A DNA stretch of 14,225 bases, taken from the IMG/VR virus record IMGVR_UViG_2778261499_000007; one strand, given 5' to 3'. The position numbers and the translations under genes are program-made. The notes beneath the pieces are model-generated. The model was not told the origin of the DNA. It made no database searches and saw only the letters and a program-made list of their open reading frames with translations. This DNA comes from a virus. Taxonomy: Duplodnaviria > Heunggongvirae > Uroviricota > Caudoviricetes. Every line of letters begins with the position of its first letter. Within the stretch, counting starts at the first letter, position 1. Below are positions 1,403-14,225 of this stretch, one piece after another.

Positions 1403-1436
1403 AAAAGACACCTCAAAAACTTAAGACGGGGATTAT

Positions 1437-1480: not shown

Positions 1481-1487
1481 TGGATAA
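1479..1487 (-). promoter_or_regulatory. Perfect DnaA box (TTATCCACA on the minus strand)
   Basis: The plus strand reads tgtggataa, a 9/9 match to the E. coli consensus. It abuts IR-L. Confidence 0.4.
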
Positions 1488-1488
1488 T

Positions 1489-1541
1489 AAAAAAGGGAAG
1501 AGGGAAAGACCTATCCCCGATCTCTCACCTCTTCCCTTTGC
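1489..1541 (-). terminator. Rho-independent terminator after the capsid gene (possibly bidirectional)
   Basis: 10-bp stem AGGGAAGAGG (1494-1503) / CCTCTTCCCT (1528-1537). On the minus strand it is followed by TTTTT. It starts 3 nt after the capsid stop. Confidence 0.7.
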
Positions 1542-1543
1542 TT

Positions 1544-2578: not shown

Positions 2579-2589
2579 TTCCAACCTCC

Positions 2590-2925
2590 TTATTGTGCAA
2601 CACGCAAATCGCCATTGCTGGCAGCAATAACAGCGGCTAAGCCGTCTTTATCCACGTAGGCCGGATTGATATAACAGCCTTTGTTGGCAACAACGATAAA
2701 AGCATCACCAACCTCAGCACGTTCTACAACCAGCAGCGGAGTTTTATCGGTGTGCGTTTCTTTAACGAAGGTCTCAACCTCGCCAGCCTCAGTCACCACA
2801 ACAACAGTGCCAGCCGGAATCTCAGCTTTAACTTTGTTTTTAATTTCAACGTCGCGAATACTAAATTGCTCATCTGCGGCGTATGAAATGATGTGTCCGC
2901 GTGTGCGGATAGTCATATCTCTCAT
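2590..2925 (-). CDS. Head decoration / cement protein, lambda gpD-like (111 aa)
   Basis: AGGTGA lies 4 nt upstream of the ATG. About 110 aa with IPAGTVVVV...G..v.....a.VGDAFIVVANKGCY, typical of decoration proteins. It sits immediately upstream of the capsid gene, as in lambda D-E. Confidence 0.6.
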   Translation of the reverse strand: MRDMTIRTRGHIISYAADEQFSIRDVEIKNKVKAEIPAGTVVVVTEAGEVETFVKETHTDKTPLLVVERAEVGDAFIVVANKGCYINPAYVDKDGLAAVIAASNGDLRVAQ

Positions 2926-3410
2926 TTGATCACCTGCGATTTAAATTAACTCCCCTCAAAGAGTTCCGGTATAACCTCTCAAACCGCGACAGGCTCGGGC
3001 CGAAAAGTTATGCCGGAAATCTAAAGGGGGATTGATATAAGGAGAGGGAGATAGCCCCGCACCGTAGCCAAGCGGGGGCTATTCCACATGGGGAAACCGA
3101 CAACAGTCGGATGATAGTTCACAGTATGGGTTACGGTTACTAGAGAGCACTATCACGAAAGGCACTCCCCCGAATCAGTTCAGGCTGCGGTCACATCAGC
3201 GGGGAAATACCTTTCGGGATAGCTACCCACACAGAAAACCCGCAAAAGAAAACTGTGTGGATAACTAGCCCAATAGGAGAATTAATCGACCACTCAACGA
3301 TGATCAGGGTAGTGTTATTTATAGGGCGGCACCGCTACCTGGTCGCCTTTACTTTGGAGGAAAATATGGCAAATCAAGATCTTCTCAAATGATATTGATT
3401 CCATACTATA
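2926..3410 (-). other. About 480-nt ORF-poor, hairpin-dense leader between the SOS promoter and the decoration gene (candidate cos/packaging region or regulatory RNA)
   Basis: Stems read directly: ATAGCCCCGC/GCGGGGCTAT (3051-3081); CCGAC/GTCGG; CCACACAG/CTGTGTGG (3228-3260); TCCGG.ATAAC/GTTATACCGGA (2966-3019, 11 bp with 1 mismatch); and a nested long hairpin at about 3140-3226. There is a GC-rich quasi-symmetric block, GGGCGGCACCGCTACCTGGTCGCC, at 3324-3347. Confidence 0.4.
3256..3264 (-). promoter_or_regulatory. Perfect DnaA box (TTATCCACA on the minus strand)
   Basis: The plus strand reads tgtggataa, 9/9. It lies within the 3' arm of the CCACACAG/CTGTGTGG hairpin and its 3' flank. Confidence 0.35.
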
Positions 3411-3428
3411 CTGTATATTATATCAGTA
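3409..3428. promoter_or_regulatory. LexA operator (SOS box)
   Basis: TACTGTATATTATATCAGTA equals TACTG-N10-CAGTA with an all-A/T spacer. This is the canonical E. coli-type CTG-N10-CAG palindrome. It overlaps the -10 element of the promoter below. Confidence 0.8.
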
Positions 3429-3445
3429 TTTACTCACATTGTCAA
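3417..3445 (-). promoter_or_regulatory. Consensus sigma70 promoter firing leftward toward the decoration/capsid operon
   Basis: The minus strand reads TTGACA (3445-3440), a 17-nt spacer atgtgagtaaatactga, then TATAAT (3422-3417). Both hexamers and the spacing are perfect. Confidence 0.8.
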
Positions 3446-3775
3446 CACCTTGATTATATAAATTCTAATAATTAGCGTAGTAACGGTATTTTCAGACCTC
3501 TATCAATCCCATCAATACGTCACCCCCACCCTTTAGATGCATACATCCGACCTACTTTGTAGGCTTGGCGTACTGCCAAGGTCGCAGCTATGCGACTCCT
3601 ATCTATCACCACTTTATAAAGCTTGATAGATATCTTTTGATCAATATCAATGTTTTCCGGGTATTTACCCGGCTATAGTTCGAATCAAGGAAGGGGAGCA
3701 TTGATAGAGACACCCAAAGGGGTGACTGAAAGTCACCTGGCATAGCCAGTGAAAGCACCCAACCGAACAAACAAA

Positions 3776-3790
3776 TCAACTTCTCGCAAA
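3776..3790 (+). promoter_or_regulatory. Conserved leader motif copy 1 (TCAACTTCTCGCAAA), 26 nt before an ATG
   Basis: Identical 15-mer to 4367-4381, at the same distance from the start codon. Confidence 0.6.
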
Positions 3791-3801
3791 AGGTGATAGT
3801 T

Positions 3802-3924
3802 ATGGGTATCAAGAACAGTGCCAGCGCATGGCAAAAGGCCAGGTTTCATCACCCACACATTGTTAAGGCAATTGAGGTGGTTGGAGTTTTAGCCCTGATG
3901 TTAGCTCTGTGTGTGGAGGTGTGA
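3802..3924 (+). CDS. Small protein, 40 aa, with a hydrophobic C-terminal segment
   Basis: AGGTGA SD upstream. Translation: MGIKNSASAWQKARFHHPHIVKAIEVVGVLALMLALCVEV. It is below the ORF-track size cut-off and was translated by hand. Confidence 0.4.
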   Translation: MGIKNSASAWQKARFHHPHIVKAIEVVGVLALMLALCVEV

Positions 3925-3925
3925 G

Positions 3926-4006
3926 ATGGGCAAAGGAGGCAAAGCATTTTTAATAGGTCTGGCTATCCTGGATGTTCTACTAATCATGATTAAGCGGAGT
4001 TTATGA
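3926..4006 (+). CDS. Small membrane peptide, 26 aa
   Basis: GGAGG lies 6 nt upstream. The start is 1 nt after the previous stop. Translation: MGKGGKAFLIGLAILDVLLIMIKRSL. Confidence 0.4.
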   Translation: MGKGGKAFLIGLAILDVLLIMIKRSL

Positions 4007-4025
4007 ACAGCATTGAGAGGAGTTT

Positions 4026-4286
4026 ATGACGGGGGCTAAAGATATCAGGAGACTGAGGGAAGAGCTGATAGCTGAAATTAAAGCTAAGGCAAAGCAAATG
4101 GAGATAGCCGCACAAATGGATGTAGCGGAACAGATGTACAAGATGGTTGAGGAGGGAACGCCACGACAGGTTATCGCTAAAACCTTCGGTGTGGGGATCG
4201 CCACCGTGCACAGAAGGCTGAAAGCCTATGCCGACTACCACAATATCGAGAGAAAGGAGGATGGGAGATTTAAGAAGAATAAATAG
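4026..4286 (+). CDS. Stand-alone recombinase-type HTH protein (86 aa; coiled helix plus a Hin/resolvase-like HTH, no catalytic domain)
   Basis: GTPRQVIAKTFGVGIATVHRRL aligns with Hin GHPRQQLAIIFGIGVSTLYRYF (10/22 identical, from memory). The N-terminal 40 aa is a charged helix. No serine-recombinase catalytic domain is present anywhere in the element. Confidence 0.55.
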   Translation: MTGAKDIRRLREELIAEIKAKAKQMEIAAQMDVAEQMYKMVEEGTPRQVIAKTFGVGIATVHRRLKAYADYHNIERKEDGRFKKNK

Positions 4287-4292
4287 TAGGAA

Positions 4293-4336
4293 CAGGCCCG
4301 AAGGGCTTAGCTTTAGCTAAGGTCCTATCAGGACTC
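4293..4336 (+). repeat. Inverted repeat IR-R (44 nt, partner of 1437-1480)
   Basis: Sequence: caggcccgaagggcttagctttagctaaggtcctatcaggactc. It starts 7 nt after the HTH gene stop. Confidence 0.9.
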
Positions 4337-4366
4337 CCACACAGTCCAACAGGTTATTAACTAAAT

Positions 4367-4381
4367 TCAACTTCTCGCAAA
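4367..4381 (+). promoter_or_regulatory. Conserved leader motif copy 2 (TCAACTTCTCGCAAA), 26 nt before an ATG
   Basis: See 3776-3790. Confidence 0.6.
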
Positions 4382-4392
4382 GGGGTACCACT

Positions 4393-5103
4393 ATGTTTAA
4401 AGGTCTTGTTGTTACGCTATTGGCTTGCATTGTATTTGGTCCATGGGTGTTAGTAATTGCTTTACCTATATTGCTGATCATGAGCTTAGGGAATGATATT
4501 AAAAAGCTGCATGCACAATATAAGGAGCATCCTGGAGCAGTCATAACAAGTCTGGTTATAGTCGCGGGGCTTATTGGCTGGGTCTACTTCTCTCTTCCCA
4601 CAGGAAATACAACTGCAAATGTAGAAGAGGCGAACGCACAGCATGAAGAAGTGGTTAACGTCGCCGACCTTACATGGGAGGACAGGGTAAAAGCATATAA
4701 ATATATTTATGGTGTGCTAGATTGCGATCTCTCTAAAGATATAGGATGCACAGATAAATACCAGATTCACGCCTGGCTGTGGAATCATGCAGAAAAAGGT
4801 GCTTGCAACCAGATTAAAGTGGCGGTTAACAGTGGGGCACCTACTGGGAAAAATAAAGATGTTCTGACGGTATGGTGCAAGGATGTAAAAGGCAATGATC
4901 GTTGGCTACAGATGCGCCACATGGACGGTGTAAGCATAGAAACTACACGAACGGCTCGATGGTATAACGGTGAACTCGTTCACGAAGCATGGCAGAATAA
5001 CGCCTGGATCACTGAGGGAACACTCCTGAATGTTGATATGGAAGCATTGAAGATGCTTAATGAGATGTACGGTGAAGCCGTAGAAACCTCTCCGATGAAA
5101 TAA
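4393..5103 (+). CDS. Membrane protein (236 aa) with N-terminal TM helices and a Cys/Trp-rich extracytoplasmic domain; function unknown
   Basis: Hydrophobic stretches: LVVTLLACIVFGPWVLVIALPILLIM and VITSLVIVAGLIGWVYF. Soluble C-terminal domain. Followed by a strong terminator. Confidence 0.6.
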   Translation: MFKGLVVTLLACIVFGPWVLVIALPILLIMSLGNDIKKLHAQYKEHPGAVITSLVIVAGLIGWVYFSLPTGNTTANVEEANAQHEEVVNVADLTWEDRVKAYKYIYGVLDCDLSKDIGCTDKYQIHAWLWNHAEKGACNQIKVAVNSGAPTGKNKDVLTVWCKDVKGNDRWLQMRHMDGVSIETTRTARWYNGELVHEAWQNNAWITEGTLLNVDMEALKMLNEMYGEAVETSPMK

Positions 5104-5113
5104 CCACACCTAC

Positions 5114-5140
5114 CAGGGGCCATCACGGCCCCTTTTTATT
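5114..5140 (+). terminator. Rho-independent terminator
   Basis: AGGGGCC-atcac-GGCCCCT followed by TTTTTATTT. Confidence 0.8.
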
Positions 5141-5200
5141 TATCCCCTATTTACACTCCTTTCAGTCCTGATCATCACTCCCTACCCCCTGATCAATTAA

Positions 5201-5251
5201 CCCCTATTTAAGGGGTATTTAATGGGTATTTAATGCCTATTTATTGATTTA
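5201..5251. repeat. Phased 11-bp repeats (SSSTATTTAWK, 4-5 copies)
   Basis: TATTTA starts at 5205, 5216, 5227 and 5238, an exact 11-bp period. There is a degenerate copy at about 5247 and an isolated copy at 5148. Confidence 0.7.
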
Positions 5252-6486
5252 ATCCGTTTTATGCCACAACCGCCCGGTTGACAGAGTAAGAGAGAGGGTG
5301 TAACCCTTTTTCGTAATACTAATAAAATCAATAGCTTAGCTCAATTGGCCTTTTCTCTGTTTTTGTCAAATTTAACATACCCTAAAAAACTGCAAAATCT
5401 GGCTGCAAGATTATCTGCAGCTGGATTTCTTACACCTCAATTTGTGGTATCACCCTGACTAGTTTGTGCATAAAATGAACAGTTTTTAACATTTCCTCTT
5501 CACCTGGTAACCACACAAAAAGCTAAAAACGAGGCACAGATAATCTTAGAGGCCTGTTTTCTTGTTATCACTCTGGAAACGTCGTAGAAGTGATTTTGAT
5601 GAAAGATGACCTACCCTATTACACCCCCATTTTTTGTTATCACAATTGCATCCTGTGCGGTGTATGGCTGTGTGCTGAAAGCGGTCTTGGGTGTGGGTGT
5701 CAGAAATATCCATTAGCGGTATTAATACCCGTCAGATGTTCGTCTGAGGTGCCAGGCAGGCGCTCCCCCACCTCCCTTTTTTCTTCTAACAATTCTCAAA
5801 TATCACACCACTGCCGACCACGTTACTACTCTGTTAATTCTTAAGCTTTGCTGTATGTTGTGCACATTATTTATTCAGGTGCGTGTACGTAAATTCTGGG
5901 CCTCCTTATCATGATTTTTAAATCAGATTTTGTAGTTCGGTTTCTTAGTGTAGATAAGATCTATTATGTTAAATGCAATTTTCCCAACCCTTCAAATCAA
6001 TGACTTACATGTAAGCATGCACTAACACCCCACACAGCACATTAGACGTATAGATGGCTATATCCCACATTTTTGATTGTTTTGTAGTCATTCCCCTGAT
6101 CATTTAACCAGTATAGTTTGTTCTTTGCAGACCACAAAATCGGAATTTACATCTGATTAACATAATCTGTTAGCATGATCACTATTACCCACACAACAAT
6201 AACCCCATGCAAGACTCTTCAGGCAATTTATCGGCGTGTTGGTGTGAACAGTCTTTCATGTTCTTTATGTTTTCATTGTCCTGTGTGAGGGAAGGATGGA
6301 CTGCCCCAGGGGCCACACTTATGATGCCCGGTCAACATAGCTATTGATAAAATCAACGGGTGTTGATCTGCATATTTCCCACACATGAGAGGAAATCAGA
6401 GCAAAGAGAGAGGAGAGAGGTTTGCTAGTCAAAATAGGTCAATTGACGGCTAATACAGAGTAAAAAATCAGATGCAATCACTCCCC

Positions 6487-6673
6487 ACCTGTTGGGATTT
6501 CCCGCACCTGTATAAGAATACAGTCATACTTTCCCGTTATACGGTCATACACATGATGGAATAACCTGTTGGAATTTCCTACAGGTTTAACCATACACAG
6601 GAGCTAACCTGTTGGAATTTCCTACTACTACCTGTCGGTATTTCCCACAGGTACCTGTTGGAATTTCCCACAC
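6487..6673 (+). repeat. Iteron array (5 x 21 bp, ACCTGTTGGAATTTCCCACAS); candidate replication origin
   Basis: Copies start at 6487, 6564, 6607, 6630 and 6653. The last three have a 23-bp period. Each contains an internal ACCTGT...ACAGGT dyad. An AT-rich flank (6674-6708) contains GATCTATTCTCTT on the minus strand (6683-6695), 1 mismatch from the oriC 13-mer GATCTnTTnTTTT. Confidence 0.75.
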
Positions 6674-6797
6674 TAATAGATAAAGAGAATAGATCAATAA
6701 AAAGAACTCCCCCTATAATCCCCCAACAAGGGGGGATGGGGAGGGATCAGAGAGTGGGGAAGGTTTTCTAAGGGAAAAGCTTAACCCACAAATGAAA

Positions 6798-7086
6798 GCC
6801 TAAAGAGCATTAGCGACTCTTTAGGCAATCTGTGTGTGGGGTGACAATGTATTCCATACATGACACGTCACCCAATTGTGTGTGGGGTGCTTACAGCACT
6901 TAAGCCTCTGGCTTAACCCTTCGGGCCTCTGTGTGGGAAGCGTAGTGCGATAGCACGTAGCTTTATAATGTGGAGTCCGGATAAGAGACTTCTGTTTCCA
7001 ATCCGGACCGTTTAAGCGAGGGATTCCGCTCGCCCGTGTATGCACACACGTAATAGGACGCTCAGAAATCGATTTTAAGGCCCAAA
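6798..7086 (+). other. Cluster of GC-rich hairpins (candidate structured ncRNA or single-strand initiation signal)
   Basis: GCCTAAAGAG/CTCTTTAGGC (6798-6826); GGGTGAC..GTCACCC with nested ATGTAT/ATACAT (6839-6873); CCC-TTCG-GGG context (6917-6925); GTCCGGAT/ATCCGGAC (6975-7008); GCGAG/CTCGC (7016-7033); AGGCCC/GGGCCT (7069-7086). TGTGTGTGGGGTG occurs twice (6831, 6877). Confidence 0.35.
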
Positions 7087-7231
7087 ACGGGGCCTACAGC
7101 AACCTAAACCATACTCCATAGTGCAATTGCATTGCCTGATGCTTAAATCGCGTTGTAGGGCATCTCATGAGGTTTGAGTTTAACACCCTCCAAAGTTTTA
7201 ACAAAAAGTGCTCTCCCTCCATTGTGGGCCA

Positions 7232-7261
7232 TTGACAATCTTATTGCATAAATGCTATAAG
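7232..7261 (+). promoter_or_regulatory. Promoter P1 (TTGACA-18-TATAAG)
   Basis: Read directly. Shares the ATTGACAAT motif with P2 and P3. Confidence 0.5.
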
Positions 7262-7360
7262 TGATTCTGGTTTTGACACGGTAGGGGCCATTAATAATGT
7301 TTACCCCTTTGCTGTGGACTTGCTTGCACCTATAGCACACCTAAATGATAATAATTCTCA

Positions 7361-7389
7361 TTGACAATTGGTTGACAATATGATAAGAT
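7361..7389 (+). promoter_or_regulatory. Promoter P2 (TTGACA-17-TAAGAT)
   Basis: Read directly. A second TTGACAAT lies 11 bp downstream, at 7372. Confidence 0.5.
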
Positions 7390-7424
7390 TATAAATAGGG
7401 GGAGAAACAGATCCGGAGGTCAAT

Positions 7425-7574
7425 GTGGAAATTACTGATGCAATAGCGATCATCAACCTGGCTGTACTGTGGTGCGGTGTTGCCTACATAGCCGGAGTAA
7501 CTGCAATCGACAATCTCGAAGAAAAAATGATAGATAAATACAAAAAGATTGTTGACAATTTGACGAATGTCTGA
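7425..7574 (+). CDS. Small single-TM peptide (49 aa, GTG start)
   Basis: GGAGG lies 5 nt upstream of the GTG. Translation: VEITDAIAIINLAVLWCGVAYIAGVTAIDNLEEKMIDKYKKIVDNLTNV. Not in the ORF track; translated by hand. Confidence 0.4.
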   Translation: MEITDAIAIINLAVLWCGVAYIAGVTAIDNLEEKMIDKYKKIVDNLTNV

Positions 7575-7580
7575 TAAAAT
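7552..7580 (+). promoter_or_regulatory. Promoter P3 (TTGACA-17-TAAAAT)
   Basis: Read directly. It lies inside the 3' end of the 49-aa ORF. Confidence 0.55.
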
Positions 7581-7630
7581 ATAAAGCATAGGGTAATTCT
7601 CATCATAGTGAATTTCCTTAAACAAAAATG

Positions 7631-7662
7631 CGGGGGCTTGTCTTAAGTTCCCGTTTCTTTTT
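7631..7662 (+). terminator. Intrinsic terminator / attenuator in the leader of the replication operon
   Basis: CGGGGGCTT-gtctt-AAGTTCCCG (9-bp stem including two G.U pairs) followed by TTTCTTTTT. It sits between P3 and the ATG at 7706. Confidence 0.55.
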
Positions 7663-7705
7663 AACCGTATATCGCACAGGCGGTGAGCTGACAGGAGATT
7701 GAATC

Positions 7706-7915
7706 ATGGCTAAAACCGGACCGATAAGCCAGCTGGTAAACTGGACTACTGACGAAATCGTCGAGAACGTGCTTAAAGGTAACTTTCGAAAAACTTCCGT
7801 TTATGCATTTATTCGTAAACACAAAGGGGAATACCCACATATTGAAGCGGCAATAGAAAAACTTAACTTTATCCGCATTGAGCGTGAGCTGGAAAGATAT
7901 AAACATCTACTTTGA
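7706..7915 (+). CDS. Small protein (69 aa), possible DNA-binding regulator
   Basis: AGGAG lies 8 nt upstream. First gene of the rightward operon. KTSVYAFIRKHKGEYP weakly recalls AlpA/Xis-type sTiYr.i..g.fP. Confidence 0.5.
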   Translation: MAKTGPISQLVNWTTDEIVENVLKGNFRKTSVYAFIRKHKGEYPHIEAAIEKLNFIRIERELERYKHLL

Positions 7916-7939
7916 TAAATAATCTTGGAGGATCATATT

Positions 7940-8326
7940 ATGGCAAATAACGATGAAAATTTTACTCCCTTTTTTAAACGTTTCATCAAATACACTTTTA
8001 AAAATCCGATTGCAAAAACTGCAACCAATAAAGAAAGATTTCACTTAAATGTGTTGGAGGTAACAATTTATGGTGAAATGGTAAGTTATTCTTTTAAGGA
8101 GGGTGAAGAAATAATTATCTCAGAGCTCTCGACGCAGACATTAGCAGACGATTATGATGTTACAGAGAAAACAGTAAGGTCGGCTATCAAAACATTAGAG
8201 GCTGCAGGTCTGATAAACGTTAAACGAGAACAGGGCAAATCGAATATCTACGAATTGCTAATTACCCCTGATCAGCTTGGCAAGATGTGCGATGAGCAGG
8301 GTATTAGAGAATATTTTATATATTAA
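7940..8326 (+). CDS. Winged-helix DNA-binding protein, short paralog of the Rep-like protein (128 aa)
   Basis: GGAGG lies 8 nt upstream of the ATG at 7940. The track start at 7925 is a TTG. It aligns along its whole length with the N-terminal 130 aa of the next protein (FTP.F..FI.Y.F..P.A....NK...ERF.L...E..IYG.MV...F.....I.ISE...LA.......VSAIK.LE.AGLI......G.SN.Y.LL.TPDQL..MC.E.G). Confidence 0.65.
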   Translation: MANNDENFTPFFKRFIKYTFKNPIAKTATNKERFHLNVLEVTIYGEMVSYSFKEGEEIIISELSTQTLADDYDVTEKTVRSAIKTLEAAGLINVKREQGKSNIYELLITPDQLGKMCDEQGIREYFIY

Positions 8327-8337
8327 TGGGGGGAACT

Positions 8338-9258
8338 ATGGCAGGAAATAAACTGGGGGCACCTTTTACCCCCTCTTTCGATTTCTTTATTCAGTATGAT
8401 TTTGATAAACCAGTAGCAACAACAATTTCTAATAAAAAGACTGGAACAGTTAAAGAGCGCTTCTATTTAACAGACTTTGAAATGTTGATTTATGGAAAAA
8501 TGGTGGGATTTCATTTTAACGGTGAGGGAATTTATATTTCAGAGCAAAAACTGGCAACTCAACTCAGAAAGGATCGCGGGAAAATAGTAAGCGCTATTAA
8601 ATCTCTGGAAAATGCCGGGCTTATTTCTAAAGATAGCCGGAAAGGCATGTCTAATAATTACAAATTGCTGAAAACCCCTGATCAATTGTTGGATATGTGC
8701 ATTGAGAAGGGCGTAAATATTCCAGAAGGCATCTTAGAGACTTTCGGAAAGACTGCCGCTAAAGTAGAACAGCCTCAGGAAGCCCCAAAACAAGCCACAC
8801 AGCAAGCTAAAAAGGCTAAAGTAGTGCAATTGCCTACCCAAGACACTAAAGCGCCTCAAATTAACGCTGTTAGTGACAAGCCACGCCGGGGCCGTCCTGT
8901 GAAAGATGTCACCGATGGAGGCTGGATCGTCCTGGGTGAGAGTGAGGCTAAAGGCATAATGCGATCACTGTGGGAAAGCAAATACAAAGATTTAAACAAA
9001 CGTCGCCCGATCCTTTTGTCAAAGATTCAGGAGGATTTTTACACCGCAGAAGAGGTAAGCCAACATAAAGGGAAAAGAGAGGGTGAAATCTGGAAACCGG
9101 AAGAATACTGGCATTTAACCAGACCTGTGTTTATTTTTGCAAATAAGCTTATTGGGATGGGATTTGAAATATTGTTGGATAAAACCTGCGGAGATTATCC
9201 CGAAATATTGTGGAGAAATGTTAGAAAAAATAAAAAAGGCATTTTAGAGTTTAAATAA
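8338..9258 (+). CDS. Putative replication initiator (306 aa): N-terminal winged helix plus a PRRGRP basic linker plus a C-terminal domain
   Basis: GGGGGG lies 4 nt upstream of the ATG at 8338, and the paralog alignment starts at MAGNK. The wHTH pattern is typical of plasmid/phage initiators. The iterons lie about 1.3 kb upstream. Confidence 0.55.
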   Translation: MAGNKLGAPFTPSFDFFIQYDFDKPVATTISNKKTGTVKERFYLTDFEMLIYGKMVGFHFNGEGIYISEQKLATQLRKDRGKIVSAIKSLENAGLISKDSRKGMSNNYKLLKTPDQLLDMCIEKGVNIPEGILETFGKTAAKVEQPQEAPKQATQQAKKAKVVQLPTQDTKAPQINAVSDKPRRGRPVKDVTDGGWIVLGESEAKGIMRSLWESKYKDLNKRRPILLSKIQEDFYTAEEVSQHKGKREGEIWKPEEYWHLTRPVFIFANKLIGMGFEILLDKTCGDYPEILWRNVRKNKKGILEFK

Positions 9259-9275
9259 AAACACTGATAATCTTA

Positions 9276-9289
9276 TTTTTTTTTTTTTT
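9276..9289 (+). repeat. T14 homopolymer tract
   Basis: Counted directly. It lies between the Rep-like stop and the RBS of the next small ORF. Confidence 0.9.
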
Positions 9290-9306
9290 GTTTAAGGAAA
9301 TTTAAA

Positions 9307-9453
9307 ATGTATGGCGATTTTGATTATTACCTGGAAAAGGAAAAATATTTTGAAGATGAACTATCACAACATTTTTCATATTGGGAAGAATATTGTGGTT
9401 GGTTAGCTGAAGATCCAGCAGATGAAGAAAATGATTCTGACATCCCTTATTAA
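9307..9453 (+). CDS. Highly acidic, aromatic-rich 48-aa protein
   Basis: AAGGA lies 8 nt upstream. Translation: MYGDFDYYLEKEKYFEDELSQHFSYWEEYCGWLAEDPADEENDSDIPY (18 D/E, 2 K, 0 R). Not in the ORF track; translated by hand. Confidence 0.5.
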   Translation: MYGDFDYYLEKEKYFEDELSQHFSYWEEYCGWLAEDPADEENDSDIPY

Positions 9454-9551
9454 TTAATATCCCCTGTTATCCCCAAACAAACTAAATAAATAAACTAAGC
9501 ACTAGAACTAGATTGATTGCCCTGATCTTTTAAACGTTCGGAGAATTAATC

Positions 9552-10040
9552 ATGTTCAAATCTGATCTTTCTGATTCCCAATTTGAAAAACTGGTAGCAC
9601 TGCAGAAATATCTCCCCAGTGATGATCAACCAACACGACAGGCTAAACACTTATTAGTCGAGGGCTTTACCCCTGAATTCGTGGCGGAATATACAGGCGT
9701 TAAACTTGAGAAAGTCCAAAAACTATATAATGAGTCCTGGAATCCACGGTGTCGAGTTCCCCTCAGTGTCTACAACGAAATAGATAGAGATAGAAATGTC
9801 TTCGAAGATCGCCGCCGCAAATCTCTTTTAATGTGGAATTGTGGGATGAATATTGAAGAGATAGCAAAAGAATTAAAAGTAACCTGCTTTCATATCTGGG
9901 GCTTGTTGAGTGAAATCCTACCACGTAAGGAGCTTAATCAACGTTTGCCTAAGCCCGGTAGTCGTGCTTATCGCGAATTTATATTCATCTACCGCCGCCA
10001 TAGCAATAAAGTCCGGAAAGCAATGGCCCAGAAAGCCTAA
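9552..10040 (+). CDS. Protein with two HTH-like motifs (162 aa); function unknown
   Basis: GGAGA lies 7 nt upstream. HTH-like stretches: FTPEFVAEYTGVKLEKVQKLY and MNIEEIAKELKVTCFHIWGLL. Basic C-terminal tail. Confidence 0.6.
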   Translation: MFKSDLSDSQFEKLVALQKYLPSDDQPTRQAKHLLVEGFTPEFVAEYTGVKLEKVQKLYNESWNPRCRVPLSVYNEIDRDRNVFEDRRRKSLLMWNCGMNIEEIAKELKVTCFHIWGLLSEILPRKELNQRLPKPGSRAYREFIFIYRRHSNKVRKAMAQKA

Positions 10041-10113
10041 GTTTTATCTCTTCGATTTATTTATTTTCGACTCACTTTAACCCCTTCCGGGGCTCTAATT
10101 TAAGGAATTCCAA

Positions 10114-10557
10114 ATGTCTCAAATCGCTAAATTACTATCCCAGGTTATCAAAGCTTTCGACGCTGAAGATTCAAAAGTTCGCCAGGATCTTTTAGATGGC
10201 AAGTTTACCAACACCCTGGCATTTACCCGTGACAAAGAGCACTTCTTAAAACACAGACACCACGCTTTTGCTGAATGCAAGTCCGCTAATGGTGATGTTT
10301 TCTATGTCGATTTGGTGGTTATGGCATGTAGATTGTGGATGATTCAGGACCTTATGCGCCAACACGGTGATGATCCTCTTATCAGCATGTGGAACAGCGC
10401 CCAGGATGGCTTTGTGATTGCTGCCTTATCCAAATCAATGATTGAGGCAGAAGGGGCAAGCCTTCAGAACATGGCAGATCTCTTTGAAATAAGCGTAGGA
10501 ATGATGCAGACCATGCTCCAAGCTGTCAAACCTCTCAAACTGGTTAATCTTGATTAA
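10114..10557 (+). CDS. Hypothetical helical protein (147 aa)
   Basis: AAGGA lies 7 nt upstream. No recognisable motif. Confidence 0.55.
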   Translation: MSQIAKLLSQVIKAFDAEDSKVRQDLLDGKFTNTLAFTRDKEHFLKHRHHAFAECKSANGDVFYVDLVVMACRLWMIQDLMRQHGDDPLISMWNSAQDGFVIAALSKSMIEAEGASLQNMADLFEISVGMMQTMLQAVKPLKLVNLD

Positions 10558-10618
10558 GCTATTGATAAATAAGCACTCCCCATTTTTTTGGGGGGTGCAT
10601 CAATGAGAGGATATGCCT

Positions 10619-11002
10619 ATGAATATTGAAGAAATGATAGTTGAATTCGAAGATGGTGATTTCCTGGAAGATGGGGAGTTTAAATACTCCCGTTTTAAAC
10701 AGGCGTTATTTAGCAGTGAGGATAAACCACACGTTAGTGATCTTAACGACGATGATTTATGTCGTTGGGTATGCACCCGCTTATATGAGGATGGAAAATA
10801 TACAGGCCAAAACTTTCCAAATCTCTATTTCAAAGCACAAACATTTGAGGAAGGGCAAAGAGTGAAAAACCTGGTAGATAAAATGCTTTCAGCCGGATAT
10901 TTGCATAAAGAATTATTAAATCCTAAAGCTGAAAGCAAGCGCCATTATATTTTTGTGTGGTCTGTGGGGGATAAGTGCCCACTGAAGCGTAAAGGCAAAT
11001 GA
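10619..11002 (+). CDS. Hypothetical acidic protein (127 aa); tail assembly chaperone by position only
   Basis: GAGAGGA lies 7-8 nt upstream of the second ATG (10619). Acidic N-terminus. It sits two genes before the tape measure gene. Confidence 0.5.
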   Translation: MNIEEMIVEFEDGDFLEDGEFKYSRFKQALFSSEDKPHVSDLNDDDLCRWVCTRLYEDGKYTGQNFPNLYFKAQTFEEGQRVKNLVDKMLSAGYLHKELLNPKAESKRHYIFVWSVGDKCPLKRKGK

Positions 11003-11003
11003 T

Positions 11004-11189
11004 ATGAATACCTACGAAAAGATTTATCAAAAATTAAAAAGTGATAACAATGCTCCCGTCATCAAGGGCGGGGCTTCTTCCTCTGGTGACCTCTCAATCG
11101 AAGAGCTTGCGGAGAAATATAATATTGATAAAGAGGCCCTGAAAAGGGCTATTTCATTATCAAAATCTTTAAGACAAGGCGAGGTATAA
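11004..11189 (+). CDS. Hypothetical protein (61 aa)
   Basis: Tightly packed between its neighbours: it starts 1 nt after the upstream stop and its stop is 1 nt before the tape measure ATG. Confidence 0.5.
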   Translation: MNTYEKIYQKLKSDNNAPVIKGGASSSGDLSIEELAEKYNIDKEALKRAISLSKSLRQGEV

Positions 11190-11190
11190 A

Positions 11191-13293
11191 ATGGCAATGA
11201 AGGAAGTAGCCAAGCTAACAAACGTTATTTACTGGGATTCTGATAAATCCAGCTGGCGAAAAGAAGTTAAACGGCTTGAGGATTATAAAAAATCCTGGAA
11301 GAAAGCTACCGACGATATAGCTAAAGCGGATTTTAAATCTAATCAGGCTGTGCTCAGAACACAAAGAACACGCGCTAAGGTGGAAGAGCAGATCGCCAGA
11401 GCACAGAAGAAACAACGTGCTCAGGCTGTCAGCCGTCTGACCGGGGGCAATAATCCGGAGCTCTCCTCTATGCGCAAGTTCTATCAGCAGCAAGCCAGAG
11501 AGGCCGCCAGACAACAAAAACTGTTAGATCGTAGTGTTGGAGATGTTCAGCACAGAAAAGCACGTGTAGGGGCCAACAGTGCACGAATCAGCAGCATGTT
11601 TGATGGCTCCCTGGTTGCTCAGTTCCAATCCAGAATTCAGAGAGTTAATGCTGATTATGCTAAAGGGGCTATTAACCTGCAGACCTATAATCAGAAAATG
11701 GCCCGACTCAGATCTGAAATGAAGATGGCAACAGCAGAGGCCGGAAAATTTCAGAGCAGACTAGACAAAGCTGCGGTAGCAGGATCAAAGCTGCATGACA
11801 ACCTGGGCAAACTCAACTCCACACTAGGCAAGATAGCTATTGGCCTTACTGCCGCTGGCTGGGGTGTTCAGCGTGCTGTTAGTGGTGCTATGGGTAGCCT
11901 TGCAGATCGCAACAGTGCGTATTTCAGCTTAATGGCCCAGAACAAGGATGATAAAGAAAAAACTGATCAGCAGATGGCCTACGTCAAAAGAATCTCTTAT
12001 GACTACGGGATGGATCAGCGTGAGACTGAAGGCGGCTTTATGCGCTTTGCTGCAGCCACACCAAGCATAAAAGAGAAAGATAAGCAGGATCTCTTTGAGG
12101 CTATGGCGATTAAAGGCCGATCAGTGGGTGCTACCGCAGACCAACAGAACAGGGCTATCGTTGCACTAGGACAAATATATAGCAAGGGCGGTCGAGTGTA
12201 TGCGGAAGAGCTTAAGGGCCAACTTTCTGAAGCCCTGGCAGGTTCTCAGGTAGATTTCACTAAGGCCGCTATCGATGCCGGAGTCATCAAGAAAGAGGAA
12301 GAATTTAATAAAGCCCTTGAAGATGGCAAGATCACCATGGACAAGCTTCTTCCTTCTCTGGTGAAAATCTGGGGTGCTGCAAAAGAAACTAAAGCTTTTG
12401 CTGAATCCATGAAACAGCCAGAAGTAGCAATGCAGCGCATGAAAAACAGCTTTAACGAGCTGGCGATTCAGTTTATGGGTGTTGTGGATCCTGCAGATGG
12501 CGTTATTAGCTTATCTGAATCTCTAATCTCCATCTTCGAAGACCTCACCACTGATATGGACGGCAGCGGGAGCGCGGCAAAACAGTTCGGTGAGGCAGTC
12601 GGGGCTGCCATGCGGGAGATCATGTATTGGGTAGGCTTCGCTAAGGGATATATCGAGATTAAGGCTAAAGAGTTCGGCATGACCAGTGAGGAAGTCGGAG
12701 GATGGATCGGCAAGCTGGTTGTTGCAATCGCAGGTCTGAAGATCATCGGCACACTTCTTTCTCCGTTTACCGGACTGATTTCACTTGTCACACAGCTGAT
12801 AGCCTTGTTAGGTAAAATCCCTGGTATGAGCAAGCTTCTGGCTTCTGCCTCAGGTGGAACGGCAACAGGAGCAGCGGTCATCAGTGCAGGATCTAACGCT
12901 GAAAGAAGTTTCATTGATGGCAAGACGCAGGAAATGAGTAAGGAGAACTCAAAACAGGGTGCTTTGTTTGAGCTGGGAAGATTTGTTAGCAATGCTGGCG
13001 CACTATTCACACCTGGCGGTGATACTGGTCCTTTGTTCGATCAGGTCAGAGGCTGGTTTAATAAAGGGCCAACATTGACAGTAGACACTGGCATCAGACC
13101 AACACCAACGGGTGGCATAGCTATCCAGAATGGTGGATATCAACCAGTCCAAGTAAATGTAGCCCCACAAGGTGAGATTTCCGGCAAATGGGAGATAACC
13201 ATCGATGAGGGGGGAATTGCCAGGGTAATTCAGAAGGAAGTCAGCGATCAGTTGGATTGGAAAGCCACGCAGGAATCTAACCAGCTTTTCTAA
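11191..13293 (+). CDS. Tail tape measure protein (700 aa)
   Basis: GAGG lies 6 nt upstream. Long coiled-coil N-terminus. Conserved tape-measure core: ADQQNRAIVALGQIYSKGGRVYAEELKGQLSEALAGSQVDFTKAAIDAGV. Gly/Ala-rich hydrophobic segments: GKLVVAIAGLKIIGTLLSPFTGLISLVTQLIALLG. Confidence 0.85.
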   Translation: MAMKEVAKLTNVIYWDSDKSSWRKEVKRLEDYKKSWKKATDDIAKADFKSNQAVLRTQRTRAKVEEQIARAQKKQRAQAVSRLTGGNNPELSSMRKFYQQQAREAARQQKLLDRSVGDVQHRKARVGANSARISSMFDGSLVAQFQSRIQRVNADYAKGAINLQTYNQKMARLRSEMKMATAEAGKFQSRLDKAAVAGSKLHDNLGKLNSTLGKIAIGLTAAGWGVQRAVSGAMGSLADRNSAYFSLMAQNKDDKEKTDQQMAYVKRISYDYGMDQRETEGGFMRFAAATPSIKEKDKQDLFEAMAIKGRSVGATADQQNRAIVALGQIYSKGGRVYAEELKGQLSEALAGSQVDFTKAAIDAGVIKKEEEFNKALEDGKITMDKLLPSLVKIWGAAKETKAFAESMKQPEVAMQRMKNSFNELAIQFMGVVDPADGVISLSESLISIFEDLTTDMDGSGSAAKQFGEAVGAAMREIMYWVGFAKGYIEIKAKEFGMTSEEVGGWIGKLVVAIAGLKIIGTLLSPFTGLISLVTQLIALLGKIPGMSKLLASASGGTATGAAVISAGSNAERSFIDGKTQEMSKENSKQGALFELGRFVSNAGALFTPGGDTGPLFDQVRGWFNKGPTLTVDTGIRPTPTGGIAIQNGGYQPVQVNVAPQGEISGKWEITIDEGGIARVIQKEVSDQLDWKATQESNQLF

Positions 13294-13395
13294 TGTCCAC
13301 TCTGTGGATTTGAGTTCTACTCAAACCTGCATAGCAGGCACTGATATTGTGATCAAAATCAATAAGTTAGCCTGACCGGACAAACTCCAGGCAAG

Positions 13396-13432
13396 AAAAA
13401 AGCCCCTAAGTGTTAACAAAGGGGCTCTTCTC
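13396..13432. terminator. Bidirectional terminator between the convergent operons (best on the minus strand)
   Basis: AGCCCCT (13401-13407) / AGGGGCT (13420-13426), preceded by A6, so the minus strand reads stem plus TTTTTT. On the plus strand it is followed by CTTCTCC. Confidence 0.65.
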
Positions 13433-13456
13433 CGGTATCCTTTTGATGCGGGGCAA

Positions 13457-13504
13457 AACCTGCTAACAAAAATCAACCTCTCGCGAGACTAATGTTAGCA
13501 GGTT
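13457..13504 (+). other. 12-bp perfect hairpin whose 24-nt loop carries leader-motif variant 3
   Basis: AACCTGCTAACA / TGTTAGCAGGTT. The loop aaaatcaacctctcgcgagactaa contains TCAACCTCTCGCGAG (13473-13487) and the palindrome TCTCGCGAGA. Confidence 0.6.
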
Positions 13505-13822
13505 GCCGGAAGGTAAGTCAACTCCGGTCTATAAACCTTAAAGCGACTATAAAATCGCCCCGCCAATTGTGATGATCCGACCTTTGAGGCGGGTCCGGTG
13601 CCCAGGGGGTGCAGTGATGCACAAACCAGGCAACGATAAACAGGCTAACAGTGATAGCGGCGCTCAATCAGCGCACTAAATCCTAACCAGTCCGGGAAAG
13701 AGGCTGGCTCTATCGACCGCTCATGCACGGGACAATGCATACCTGATAAAGGATTCTCACAAGGGACCAATCGCGAGAAAGAAGTGGAAAGGGGCTGATT
13801 TGTGGTGTATCACTACGGCCTC

Positions 13823-13846
13823 AAAAGACATCCTATTGTCTTTTTT
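13823..13846 (+). terminator. AT-rich hairpin plus T-run (weak plus-strand terminator abutting the stop of the wrap-around gene)
   Basis: AAAAGACA-tcctat-TGTCTTTT followed by TT. Confidence 0.35.
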
Positions 13847-14148
13847 CAGCCTCTACCTACATTTGACCAATACTTGATTGCACCGATCAAATCATCATAG
13901 TGGCGCATTGCATCATTGAAGCCTTTATAGCTTGCCCATTGTGGTGAAACCTTGTTATTGCTGAATTGCCCACTAATCAGGATAGTCTCCAAAATGTCGG
14001 CATATCGCTTACCAATACGCTTTCTGACGGCCTCAGAGCTCCCACCCTTTACGATTGCATTAATCAGGGCTTTTGTGTGTCTCAGGCTCTCATAGAGCAT
14101 TGCAGCGTGGGCAGATTCCATAAAGGAGCGCTTAGGCAGATCACCCCA
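13846..14148 (-). CDS. 3' part (codons 53-152 plus stop) of the wrap-around CDS
   Basis: The ORF track lists only 13846-14121, starting at an internal Met. Hand translation shows the frame is open upstream through 14225 (...AVGWDDGKHYSGLNYATLAAIHSEGWGDLPKRSF-MESAH...). Confidence 0.6.
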   Translation of the reverse strand, partial: WGDLPKRSFMESAHAAMLYESLRHTKALINAIVKGGSSEAVRKRIGKRYADILETILISGQFSNNKVSPQWASYKGFNDAMRHYDDLIGAIKYWSNVGRG

Positions 14149-14225
14149 CCCCTCAGAGTGGATAGCTGCCAGTGTGGCGTAATTCAGGCCGCTATAGTGC
14201 TTTCCGTCATCCCAGCCAACCGCTA
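14149..14225. repeat. Terminal overlap copy 2 (identical to 1-77)
   Basis: Same comparison as for copy 1. Confidence 0.9.

What the first reader, a model, noticed from the sequence alone, without database searches (positions are those of the whole stretch)
13396..13846. 450-nt terminator-bounded, hairpin-rich spacer between the convergent tail operons
Seen: the region is bounded by a GC-rich bidirectional terminator (13396-13432) and an AT-rich hairpin plus T-run (13823-13846). Inside are a perfect 12-bp hairpin presenting the leader-motif variant, GTGCA-GTGA-TGCAC (a GNRA-type loop) and GCGCT-caatc-AGCGC. TCGCGAGA occurs twice (13481, 13771). There is also a block CGACCT-ttgag-GCGGGT (13577-13593) reminiscent of lambda cos CGACCT-c-GCGGGT (from memory). 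No ORF has an SD. It could be a stand-alone ncRNA, a long regulatory 3' UTR or a second packaging-site candidate.
Basis: seen in the sequence. Interest (0 to 1): 0.5.

Follow-up and report, generated by a model that had tools for sequence, protein, structure and literature searches.

The report
Antisense sRNA gene plus conserved structured spacer
The "spacer" is the best-conserved part of a widespread, undescribed 14-kb E. coli plasmid that carries phage capsid and tail genes; it most likely encodes a small antisense RNA that silences two plasmid genes, next to a larger folded element of unknown function.

Summary
The right-hand AT hairpin is not conserved. The "lambda cos-like" block is a hairpin whose stem covaries in relatives.

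The window is a whole 14,148-bp circular E. coli plasmid with capsid, Dit, tape-measure and neck genes. Positions 13387-13822 are its most conserved stretch: nucleotide diversity 0.0095, against 0.031-0.069 in the flanking genes.

The left third (about 13393-13521, minus strand) looks like an sRNA gene:
- a promoter, TTGACT-18-TAACAT;
- a predicted start at about 13485;
- a 5' end complementary to a 15-nt motif that ends 14 nt before the ATGs at 3802 and 4393;
- a strong minus-strand terminator.

A distant plasmid family (L049) has the same layout with a different motif, again copied in two gene leaders.

The right part (13577-13840) is a separate domain found in seven lineages and in both orientations. 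Four of its helices covary, and lineage-specific insertions are themselves hairpins. It matches no Rfam family. Its strand and function are unresolved.

Packaging-site and passive-3'UTR readings are not supported. No expression data exist, so the sRNA is predicted, not shown.

The parts
13396..13432 (-). Intrinsic terminator that works best on the minus strand (stem AGCCCCU/AGGGGCU extended by G.U pairs, then U6). It would end the predicted sRNA and any neck-operon read-through. It is only a weak terminator for the + strand TMP operon.
   Evidence: (I5). The Infernal ctRNA-like hit on the minus strand is sub-threshold. Invariant in relatives. Types B and C have terminators in the same orientation.
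13492..13521 (-). Predicted sigma70 promoter of the sRNA: -35 TTGACT (13521-13516), 18-nt spacer, TG-extended -10 TAACAT (13497-13492).
   Evidence: 9/12 match with TG. Invariant in 33-35 relatives. The -35 TTGACT is kept in type B within otherwise diverged sequence. Family C has TTGCCA-17-TATACT (10/12) at the equivalent place.
13393..13485 (-). Predicted sRNA of about 90 nt: a 5' seed, a U-rich linker, then the terminator hairpin and U-tail.
   Evidence: Start inferred from the position of the -10. Not tested experimentally.
13470..13484 (-). Seed. The minus-strand RNA GCGAGAGGUUGAUUU is complementary, with one G.U, to the leader motif AAAUCAACUUCUCGC.
   Evidence: (D3).
3773..3787 (+). Predicted target 1: the leader motif, ending 14 nt before the ATG at 3802 and next to the SD. 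The ORF encodes a 39-aa peptide with a hydrophobic tail, first cistron before the HTH_7 gene at 4026-4286.
   Evidence: core motif TCAACTTCTCGCAAA invariant in every plasmid where this leader is held; duplex -27.1 kcal/mol.
4364..4378 (+). Predicted target 2: the leader motif, ending 14 nt before the ATG at 4393. The ORF encodes a 236-aa protein with a hydrophobic N-terminus, at a hypervariable cargo locus.
   Evidence: duplex -24.9 kcal/mol; locus aligned in only 17% of relatives.
13457..13504 (.). Perfect 12-bp inverted repeat enclosing the seed, the start site and the -10. It can form only in longer read-through RNA of either strand, or in ssDNA. Its role is unknown.
   Evidence: (I2). Family C has a structural counterpart with unrelated sequence (L049 6201-6213 with 6252-6264).
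13577..13840 (.). Conserved core domain, present in seven lineages (A to G). It has four covarying helices and invariant junction blocks GATAAACAGGC (13635-13645), TACCTGATAAAG (13740-13751), ACGGCCTCAAAAG (13815-13827) and CTATTGTC (13833-13840).
13583..13590 (.). P1, 5' strand TTTGAGGC, pairs with 13818-13825 GCCTCAAA. Relatives have TTGATGC/GCATCAA, which is a compensatory change.
   Evidence: (I14).
13650..13656 (.). P2, 5' strand AGTGATA, pairs with 13808-13814 TATCACT. Relatives have GTTGGTGG/CCACCAAC and GATGGTGG/CCACCATC.
   Evidence: 5 of 8 pairs changed on both sides.
13579..13595 (.). Pa hairpin, GACC/GGTC, whose loop is the 5' strand of P1.
   Evidence: Stems in relatives: GGGC/GCCC, GGAC/GTCC, TCCC/GGGA.
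13599..13632 (.). Px helix, TGCC/GGCA. In type A only, its loop carries the inserted GNRA hairpin 13609-13622 (GUGA, or GCGA in two relatives).
13687..13707 (.). Type A hairpin CCAG.../...CTGG. One within-family compensatory change: 13688 C>A together with 13706 G>T.
13823..13845 (+). AT-rich hairpin and T-run next to the neck stop codon. Present in the window but not conserved, so probably not functional.
   Evidence: (I20).

Best explanation
The spacer holds two conserved noncoding units.

Unit 1 (about 13393-13521, minus strand) is a gene for a trans-acting antisense sRNA of about 90 nt. A sigma70-type promoter (TTGACT-18-TAACAT) would start transcription at about 13485. The RNA would then begin with GCGAGAGGUUGAUUU and end at the strong minus-strand terminator 13432-13396. 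That 5' seed pairs with the 15-nt motif AAAUCAACUUCUCGC in two + strand leaders. In each leader the motif ends 14 nt before the ATG, next to the Shine-Dalgarno sequence. One leader precedes ATG 3802, a small hydrophobic peptide at the head of the HTH_7 operon. The other precedes ATG 4393, the variable cargo gene. Pairing would lower their translation or stability. This would resemble an immunity or antitoxin control for the plasmid.

Unit 2 (13577-13840) is a separate folded domain closed by the long-range helices P1 and P2. It is most likely a structured RNA, less likely ssDNA. Its role is not known.

Shown here: conservation, motif sharing, covariation of the helices, and the positions of the promoter and terminator consensus matches. 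Inferred: that the promoter fires, that the RNA exists, and that it represses the two genes.
For: 1. Purifying selection. The core is 3-7 times less diverse than the flanking genes and is the most conserved stretch of the whole circle.

2. Motif sharing. TCAACYTCTCGC has three exact hits, all on the + strand. Two sit at the same 14-nt distance from an ATG; the third is in the spacer. The core motif (TCAACTTCTCGCAAA) is invariant in all held relatives.

3. Gene-like layout on the minus strand. There is a promoter-like site (9/12, TG-extended). The predicted start, 7 nt after the -10, falls within 1 nt of the first base complementary to the motif. A U6 terminator lies on the same strand.

4. Independent replication in family C (L049; TMP about 30% identical to the window's).
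- At the homologous place a different motif, TAATTCCTTAGCAG, is the only 3-copy 13-mer on that plasmid.
- Its two other copies lie in mRNA sense in the leaders of two genes on opposite DNA strands. One overlaps the SD AGGAG.
- A 10/12 minus-strand promoter, TTGCCA-17-TATACT, places the start exactly on the first antisense base.
- The duplexes rank first and second of 5,023 windows (-31.7 kcal/mol, z -7.0; -25.7 kcal/mol, z -5.0).

5. Type B spacers are only about 55-60% identical to type A by eye (collinear alignment score z about 3.7). They still keep the exact motif next to the terminator, and the -35 TTGACT.

6. Unit 2.
- nhmmer E-values from 1e-86 to 1e-133 across families.
- 96.7% of cells paired against 85.3% in shuffles.
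- 11 pairs changed on both sides against 4.0 +/- 1.4 (0 of 500 shuffles reach this).
- Slid controls reach at most 62% paired.
- Lineage-specific insertions are perfect hairpins.
- The GNRA loop is kept as GUGA or GCGA.
Against: - There are no expression data, and no transcript end has been mapped.
- The A-type promoter is only 9/12. The type B -10 (CACACT) is weak.
- In the window the seed-leader duplexes (-23.8 and -22.3 kcal/mol, z about -4) are among the best but not unique. One unrelated window scores -24.2.
- Shared sense-strand motifs could instead be sites for a protein.
- The 12-bp stem around the seed cannot form in the short sRNA, so the model does not explain it.
- Lineages D to G have Unit 2 but no recognisable sRNA unit.
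- For Unit 2, G.U against A.C counts do not settle the strand, and folding z-scores are modest (+0.5 to -2.6).
- I derived the helices from the same sequences I used to test them.
Confidence: 0.55

Rival explanations
1. The shared motif is a protein-binding site. It would be either an operator for a plasmid HTH protein, or an RNA site for a translational regulator. The spacer copy, displayed in a hairpin loop on + strand read-through RNA, would act as an extra site or a decoy. No antisense sRNA would be made.
For: - All copies have the same sense.
- The motif sits in the loop of a conserved 12-bp stem in both family A and family C, a feature the short-sRNA model leaves unexplained.
- The plasmids encode several HTH proteins.
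- The plus-strand tail of the terminator is weak, so TMP read-through into the spacer is plausible.
Against: - In two unrelated-sequence families a promoter-like site lies on the opposite strand with its predicted start exactly at the motif. A protein site would not need this.
- The terminator is oriented for that strand in types A, B and C.
- The one difference between the spacer copy and the leader copies (C against T) gives a G.U pair in the antisense duplex.
- In family C both target copies are in mRNA sense although they lie on opposite DNA strands.
Confidence: 0.17
2. The conserved core (Unit 2, perhaps the whole spacer) acts as DNA. It could be a packaging (pac or cos) site for a helper phage, a second origin or single-strand initiation site, or a recombination site.
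For: - The module works in either orientation relative to the flanking operons.
- It lies between divergent promoters in type B.
- It has invariant sequence blocks and a TTGATGC motif repeated twice directly and once inverted.
- The element lacks a terminase and would need a helper-recognised site if it is a satellite.
- Relatives encode a serine resolvase.
- A trimeric record exists.
Against: - Neither BLAST nor motif searches found a copy of the core in the INPHARED phages or in IMG/VR, and a motif search found none in the GTDB representatives.
- The cos-like block is not conserved in sequence.
- Short local hairpins of 3-7 bp covary, a GNRA loop is maintained, and insertions take the form of hairpins. 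This is the pattern of a single-stranded fold, not of duplex protein sites.
- In type A, P1 changed on both strands while the third TTGATGC copy (13443-13449) did not. That fits pairing rather than a change in protein specificity.
Confidence: 0.15
3. The region is a passive 3' UTR and terminator buffer between convergent late operons, with chance hairpins.
For: It lies between the convergent TMP and neck operons. The only strong terminator for the neck operon is at its far end.
Against: - It is the most conserved sequence of the plasmid.
- It is recognisably conserved in families whose proteins are only 30-45% identical.
- Its helices covary.
Confidence: 0.03

Closest known systems
Satellite and phage immunity RNAs: P4 CI RNA, and P1/P7 C4 RNA (Rfam C4 family). 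Recalled from my own knowledge, not from a paper read here.
   Same: A small RNA on a satellite or plasmid-prophage whose short recognition sequence pairs with two repeated sites in the leaders of the genes it controls. In both cases it would keep the element's early or regulatory genes silent.
   Different: No sequence or structure match: the Rfam scan found nothing. CI and C4 are cut out of the same transcript as their targets. Here the RNA is predicted to have its own promoter, to lie 9 kb from the targets on the opposite strand, and to carry its seed at the 5' end.
Trans-encoded type I antitoxin sRNAs, such as IstR-1/tisB and OhsC/shoB (own knowledge).
   Same: A short sRNA with a 5' single-stranded seed and an intrinsic terminator. 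It pairs upstream of, or at, the ribosome-binding region of an mRNA for a small hydrophobic peptide.
   Different: Toxicity of the 39-aa peptide is untested. There was no hit to known families. A second target is a 236-aa variable protein.
3'-end-derived sRNAs with an internal promoter, such as MicL or DapZ (own knowledge).
   Same: The sRNA shares the terminator of an upstream operon (the neck operon) and lies at the end of a long 3' region.
   Different: Here about 350 nt of separately conserved, folded sequence lies between the stop codon and the sRNA promoter.
Large structured ncRNAs of unknown function found in phage or prophage contexts, such as GOLLD and ROOL in Rfam (own knowledge).
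   Same: Unit 2 has long-range helices, invariant junction nucleotides and hairpin expansion segments. It sits on a phage-related mobile element and has no known function.
   Different: It is not homologous to them (no Rfam hit). It is smaller, at about 250 nt. Its strand is not established and its folding energies are modest.
Lambda cos (cosN).
   Same: Only the hexamers CGACCT and GCGGGT, 5 nt apart.
   Different: There is no BLAST similarity to any phage and no adjacent terminase gene. In relatives the two hexamers are replaced by other complementary sequences, because they form a hairpin stem.

Membership tests
Trans-acting base-pairing sRNA (5' seed plus Rho-independent terminator) | Own promoter and a defined 5' end | tested here: inconclusive
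   Consensus matches sit at the right place in family A (9/12, TG-extended) and family C (10/12). Type B has a weak -10. No experimental start site is available.
Trans-acting base-pairing sRNA (5' seed plus Rho-independent terminator) | Intrinsic terminator with a U-tail on the same strand | tested here: met
   The minus-strand stem 13432-13396 is followed by U6. Types B and C have the same orientation.
Trans-acting base-pairing sRNA (5' seed plus Rho-independent terminator) | Seed complementary to the translation-initiation region of the target mRNAs | tested here: met
   15 bp (one G.U) with leader 1, and 12+3 bp with leader 2. Both motifs end 14 nt before the ATG.
Trans-acting base-pairing sRNA (5' seed plus Rho-independent terminator) | Seed and targets change together across relatives | tested here: met
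   Family C has a different motif at the homologous place, and it is again repeated in two leaders of that plasmid.
Trans-acting base-pairing sRNA (5' seed plus Rho-independent terminator) | The transcript exists and regulates its targets | not testable with these tools
   No RNA-seq or genetic data are available.
P4 CI / P1 C4 antisense RNA family | Match to the Rfam C4 covariance model, or the same processing from the target's own transcript | tested here: not met
   Rfam E-value scans of the window and four relatives found nothing in the spacer apart from a sub-threshold terminator-like hit. The gene lies on the opposite strand, far from its targets.
Lambda-type cos site | Sequence similarity to the cosN/cosB of a helper phage, and adjacency to terminase genes | tested here: not met
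   No hit to 50,697 phage genomes at E<=10. No terminase gene among the ORFs scanned against Pfam and PHROGs or in the RefSeq annotation of relatives. The block covaries as a stem.
Any described RNA family (Rfam 15) | Score at or above the gathering threshold | tested here: not met
   The best hit in the spacer was ctRNA_p42d at 23.6 bits against a threshold of 50.
Structured RNA supported by covariation | Helices kept through compensatory changes, beyond shuffle and slid-partner controls | tested here: met
   for Pa, P1, Px and P2, on 8 sequences from about 5 independent lineages. The structure was derived from the same sequences, and one A-specific hairpin was trimmed out to make the alignment.
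Type I toxin-antitoxin system | Small membrane-active toxin that is repressed by the RNA | not tested
   The 39-aa product of 3802-3921 has a hydrophobic tail by eye (sequence shown; translated by hand). It has no family hit and no toxicity data.

The most novel reading that the evidence does not exclude
The roughly 260-nt core domain (13577-13840) is a new class of structured RNA, or a single-stranded DNA fold. It would be specific to a so-far undescribed superfamily of plasmid-borne phage satellites of E. coli. It would act together with the antisense sRNA (and, in relatives, a 49-aa basic protein) as the switch that senses a helper phage or controls the element's late genes or packaging.
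Probability: 0.3. Interest if true: 0.8.

Novelty: new member of a known kind. Interest (0 to 1): 0.6.

Why it matters
The host element appears in a very large number of E. coli assemblies. Its 83-aa protein is indexed in 2,579 blocks of the collection. It is annotated only as a non-mobilizable plasmid with hypothetical proteins. It carries capsid, Dit, tape-measure and neck genes but no terminase, portal or tail-tube gene was identified.

A 2025 review still lists phage-plasmid satellites only as a possibility (PMC12282955). In such an element the most strongly conserved sequence is the natural place to look for its control circuit.

The predicted sRNA and its two targets make a directly testable regulatory model. 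The covarying core is a candidate for a new structured noncoding element.

Tried and rejected
- Known RNA family: rejected. Rfam E-value scans of the window and of four relatives gave no real hit, and there is no tRNA or tmRNA.
- Lambda-like cos or a pac site shared with a helper: rejected. BLAST against phages found nothing at E<=1e-5 or E<=10. Three IMG/VR pattern scans found nothing. The cos-like hexamers form a covarying stem.
- Small ORFs in the spacer: rejected for all but one because of frame-breaking indels among relatives. The exception, 13645-13770 (minus strand, TTG start), has no indel in relatives and was not tested further; gene callers placed no gene inside the core in relatives.
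- The right-hand AT hairpin as a terminator or boundary: not conserved.
- TCGCGAGA pairing between 13479-13486 and 13771-13778: present in type A only, with no counterpart in other lineages, so not pursued.
- Deciding the strand of the core from G.U against A.C counts, tetraloops and folding z-scores: equivocal.
- A sigma70 promoter for the core itself: I saw none conserved across lineages on either strand. This was by eye only.
- Relatives in GTDB representative genomes and IMG/VR through the TMP: none found.
- The more distant Dit-TMP co-linear families (L050-L055, L059) lack the core.
- Function of the target proteins and the 49-aa ORF: no Pfam, PHROG or PADLOC family. The family A and family C targets are not homologous.
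- Literature: no paper on these plasmids was found.
- A covariance model of the whole core was not built, because it would be too long for the calibration limit.
Full report
**What the window is**

Positions 1-77 repeat at 14149-14225. The window is therefore a complete 14,148-bp circle. Its genes are as follows:
- On the minus strand: a 111-aa protein, a major capsid protein (1544-2584), an 83-aa protein, a Dit-like baseplate protein (153-1010), and a Neck1/tail-completion protein that ends at 13846.
- On the plus strand: two Rep-like winged-helix proteins (7925-9258), several small proteins, and a 700-aa tape-measure protein (TMP, 11191-13293).
- Five 21-nt iterons lie at 6485-6671.

Near-identical circles of 13.2-13.7 kb are deposited as non-mobilizable E. 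coli plasmids. One 39.6-kb record holds three copies. The family is very common: its 83-aa protein is indexed in 2,579 blocks of the assembly collection, and about 2,000 of those lie on contigs of 10-20 kb. No phage genome matches the DNA. The finding concerns the 552 nt between the convergent TMP and neck genes.

**Checking the observation**

All the listed hairpins and repeats are present. Both strands fold better than shuffled sequence (z -3.3 and -4.3). Three corrections are needed.
- The 13396-13432 terminator has its U6 tail and a G.U-extended 14-bp stem on the minus strand. On the plus strand the tail is CUCUUCUCC.
- The AT hairpin at 13823-13845 is disrupted in most relatives. It has 52% variable sites.
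- 13294-13386 is variable or deleted in relatives.

In contrast, 13387-13822 is the most conserved stretch of the whole plasmid (99-99.7% identity per 100 nt). Among 33 relatives it has 4.4% variable sites and diversity 0.0095. The TMP 3' coding region has 23.3% and 0.0685. The neck gene has 11.9% and 0.031. Indels at 13455, 13604 and 13777 exclude all but one of the small ORFs (13645-13770, minus strand, TTG start, is not hit by an indel).

**Finding diverged homologues**

A second spacer type, type B (L022, L026, L036), occurs on otherwise window-like plasmids. It is collinear with the window's type A and, by eye, only about 55-60% identical (alignment score z about 3.7).

TMP relatives with about 30-34% identity to the window's TMP lie on other circular-sized contigs of 13-16 kb. 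These contigs have the same convergent layout, and they carry the same module:
- L049 (family C) has it in the same orientation as the window.
- L047, L048, L056 and L058 (families D to G) have it inverted relative to the TMP and Dit genes.
- nhmmer E-values run from 1e-86 to 1e-133.

In types B and D to G the module is followed, in the window's plus direction, by three further features. These are a promoter (TTGTCT-17-TATAAT), a 49-aa Lys/Arg-rich ORF and a terminator. More distant families in which Dit and TMP are co-linear lack the module.

Searches with sequence motifs of the module found no copy in IMG/VR or the GTDB representative genomes, BLAST with the spacer found none in the INPHARED phages, and no Rfam family matches in any lineage (4, 120).

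**Unit 1: a predicted antisense sRNA (minus strand, about 13393-13521)**

The 12-mer TCAACYTCTCGC has three exact hits, all on the plus strand:
- 3776 and 4367, each inside AAAUCAACUUCUCGC-like leaders that end exactly 14 nt before the ATGs at 3802 and 4393, next to the Shine-Dalgarno sequence;
- 13473, in the spacer.

The core of the leader motif (TCAACTTCTCGCAAA) is invariant in every relative held; only the flanking bases vary.

On the minus strand the promoter scan finds TTGACT-18-TAACAT with a TG extension (13521-13492). Counting 7 nt from the -10 gives a start at about 13485. The RNA would then begin (C)GCGAGAGGUUGAUUU, which is the exact complement of the leader motif with one G.U. It would run about 90 nt to the U6 terminator.

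Family C repeats this design with an unrelated sequence.
- At the homologous position the motif is TAATTCCTTAGCAG.
- It is the only 13-mer present three times on that plasmid.
- Its other two copies lie in mRNA sense in the leaders of two genes on opposite DNA strands. One overlaps the SD AGGAG of a 200-aa gene that follows the resolvase gene and a 193-aa gene. The window's 236-aa gene lies similarly, downstream of its HTH_7 gene.
- A 10/12 minus-strand promoter (TTGCCA-17-TATACT, L049 6269-6241) places the start on the first antisense base.
- The predicted duplexes rank first and second of 5,023 windows (z -7.0 and -5.0).

Type B keeps the exact motif directly against the terminator. It also keeps the -35 TTGACT, which explains the otherwise odd conserved block AGTCAACTC.

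Promoter-like sites occur at roughly one per 700 nt of either strand in these regions. A site on the right strand, within a few bases of the motif, in two independent families is therefore unlikely by chance. This last step is my own estimate, not a tool result.

The weak points are these:
- There are no expression data.
- The A-type duplex energies (z about -4) are good but not unique.
- The conserved 12-bp stem around the seed has a structural counterpart in family C. It cannot form in the short RNA, only in read-through RNA of either strand.

One possibility for that stem is that TMP read-through RNA displays the sense motif in a loop and titrates the sRNA. This is inference only.

**Unit 2: the core domain (13577-13840)**

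Alignment of seven lineages shows invariant blocks: TTGA[T/G]GCGG, GATAAACAGGC, TACCYGATAAAG, ACGGC[A/C]TCAAAA and CTATTGYC. The spacing between GATAAACAGGC and TACCTGATAAAG is the same 91 nt in types A and B.

Four helices covary:

| Helix | Window (type A) | Relatives |
|---|---|---|
| P1 | TTTGAGGC (13583-13590) with GCCTCAAA (13818-13825) | TTGATGC / GCATCAA |
| P2 | AGTGATA (13650-13656) with TATCACT (13808-13814) | GTTGGTGG / CCACCAAC; GATGGTGG / CCACCATC; GATGGT / ACCATC |
| Pa | GACC / GGTC | GGGC / GCCC; GGAC / GTCC; TCCC / GGGA |
| Px | TGCC / GGCA | CACC / GGTG; TGCC / GGCG |

RNAalifold recovers P1 and P2.

I then ran a formal count on a trimmed alignment, with the 5' and 3' segments joined by a GAAA linker and an A-specific hairpin excised.
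- 96.7% of cells are paired, against 85.3% in shuffles.
- 11 pairs changed on both sides, against 4.0 +/- 1.4. None of 500 shuffles reached the observed value.
- Slid-partner controls reach at most 62% paired.

Other observations point the same way.
- Cognate strands pair better than non-cognate strands.
- P3 (TCTCTTA/TAAGAGA against ACTTTCA/TGAAAGT) and P4 also covary.
- Within type A there is one compensatory pair, 13688 C>A with 13706 G>T. The GNRA loop stays GNRA (GUGA or GCGA).
- Lineage-specific insertions of 43-57 nt are runs of perfect hairpins.

Pa and P1 therefore form either a pseudoknot or alternative conformers.

What remains open is the strand and the function.
- Wobble evidence is split.
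- Tetraloop evidence is split too: GNRA and UUCG loops read on the forward strand, but one GUAA loop in family C reads on the reverse strand.
- Folding z-scores are modest.
- The module lies downstream of the neck operon in antisense in families A to C, and downstream of Dit in sense in families D to G.

A DNA-level role cannot be excluded. It fits the pattern of short covarying hairpins less well.

**Comparison with known systems**

In logic, Unit 1 works like the P4 CI and P1 C4 immunity RNAs, or like trans-encoded type I antitoxin sRNAs. This comparison rests on my own knowledge of those systems. It is not a member of any described family. It differs from CI and C4 in having its own promoter, a 5' seed, and a location on the opposite strand 9 kb from its targets.

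Unit 2 resembles, in kind only, the orphan structured RNAs found on phage-related elements.

A 2025 review still treats phage-plasmid satellites as hypothetical (PMC12282955). I found no paper on these plasmids.

**Verdict**

The packaging-site reading is not supported.

The sRNA is a new member of a known kind. The core domain may be something new. My confidence in the sRNA model is about 0.55. Everything beyond sequence logic needs transcript mapping and reporter tests.

Noticed in passing
window 1-14225 (1-77 = 14149-14225): The window is a complete 14,148-bp circular element. It belongs to a very widespread family of E. coli plasmids of 13.2-14.3 kb that carry a major capsid protein, a Dit-like protein, a tape-measure protein and a neck protein. 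No terminase, portal or tail-tube gene was identified. It looks like an undescribed plasmid-borne phage satellite. One of its proteins is indexed in 2,579 blocks of the assembly collection.
   Followed up: partly
NZ_CP043822.1 (39,610 bp; L007, L030): This deposited plasmid holds three copies of the element, so it appears to be a head-to-tail trimer. Its size is close to that of a typical temperate phage genome.
   Followed up: no
window 4393-5103: The 236-aa gene with a hydrophobic N-terminus sits at a hypervariable cargo locus. It aligns in only 17% of the compared plasmids, and relatives carry unrelated genes of 173-233 aa there. The leader upstream, with the sRNA target motif, is invariant.
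   Followed up: partly
window 6485-6671: Five 21-nt iterons (TAACCTGTTGGAATTTCCTAC-like), partly overlapping a palindrome. This is probably the plasmid origin, about 1.3 kb upstream of the Rep-like genes.
   Followed up: no
window 1437-1481 and 4292-4336: A 45-nt inverted repeat (89% complementary) placed just after the capsid gene and just after the HTH_7 gene. Each copy is itself hairpin-rich. A third, partial copy lies at 6911-6928.
   Followed up: no
window 2930-3800 and 5104-7420: Two further long stretches with no ORF of 60 aa or more (3606-3812 is the first exception) or few such ORFs. Parts of them are very conserved: 3201-3300 at 99.5%, and 5401-5800 at about 98%. They may hold more noncoding elements.
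   Followed up: no
L022 6258-6470; L048 10137-10286; L056 5197-5346; L058 4966-5115: In spacer type B and lineages D to G, a strong promoter (TTGTCT-17-TATAAT) and a 49-aa Lys/Arg-rich ORF follow the core domain. The ORF matches no Pfam, PHROG or PADLOC family. The window lacks it.
   Followed up: partly
L047 7000-7566; L048 14023-14589; L049 11606-12187: The related plasmid families encode a full serine resolvase. The window family keeps only an 86-aa protein with the resolvase HTH_7 domain (4026-4286).
   Followed up: no
L014/L039 (GCA_043168025.1), L042, L045: Some copies are interrupted by, or embedded next to, transposons carrying beta-lactamase genes, or sit in much larger contigs (79-353 kb). 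L042 carries the only mutation seen in the sRNA seed.
   Followed up: no
L047 8904-9027: A weak, sub-threshold Rfam hit to HgcC-family RNA (30.1 bits, E 0.0036) in a related plasmid, outside the module.
   Followed up: no
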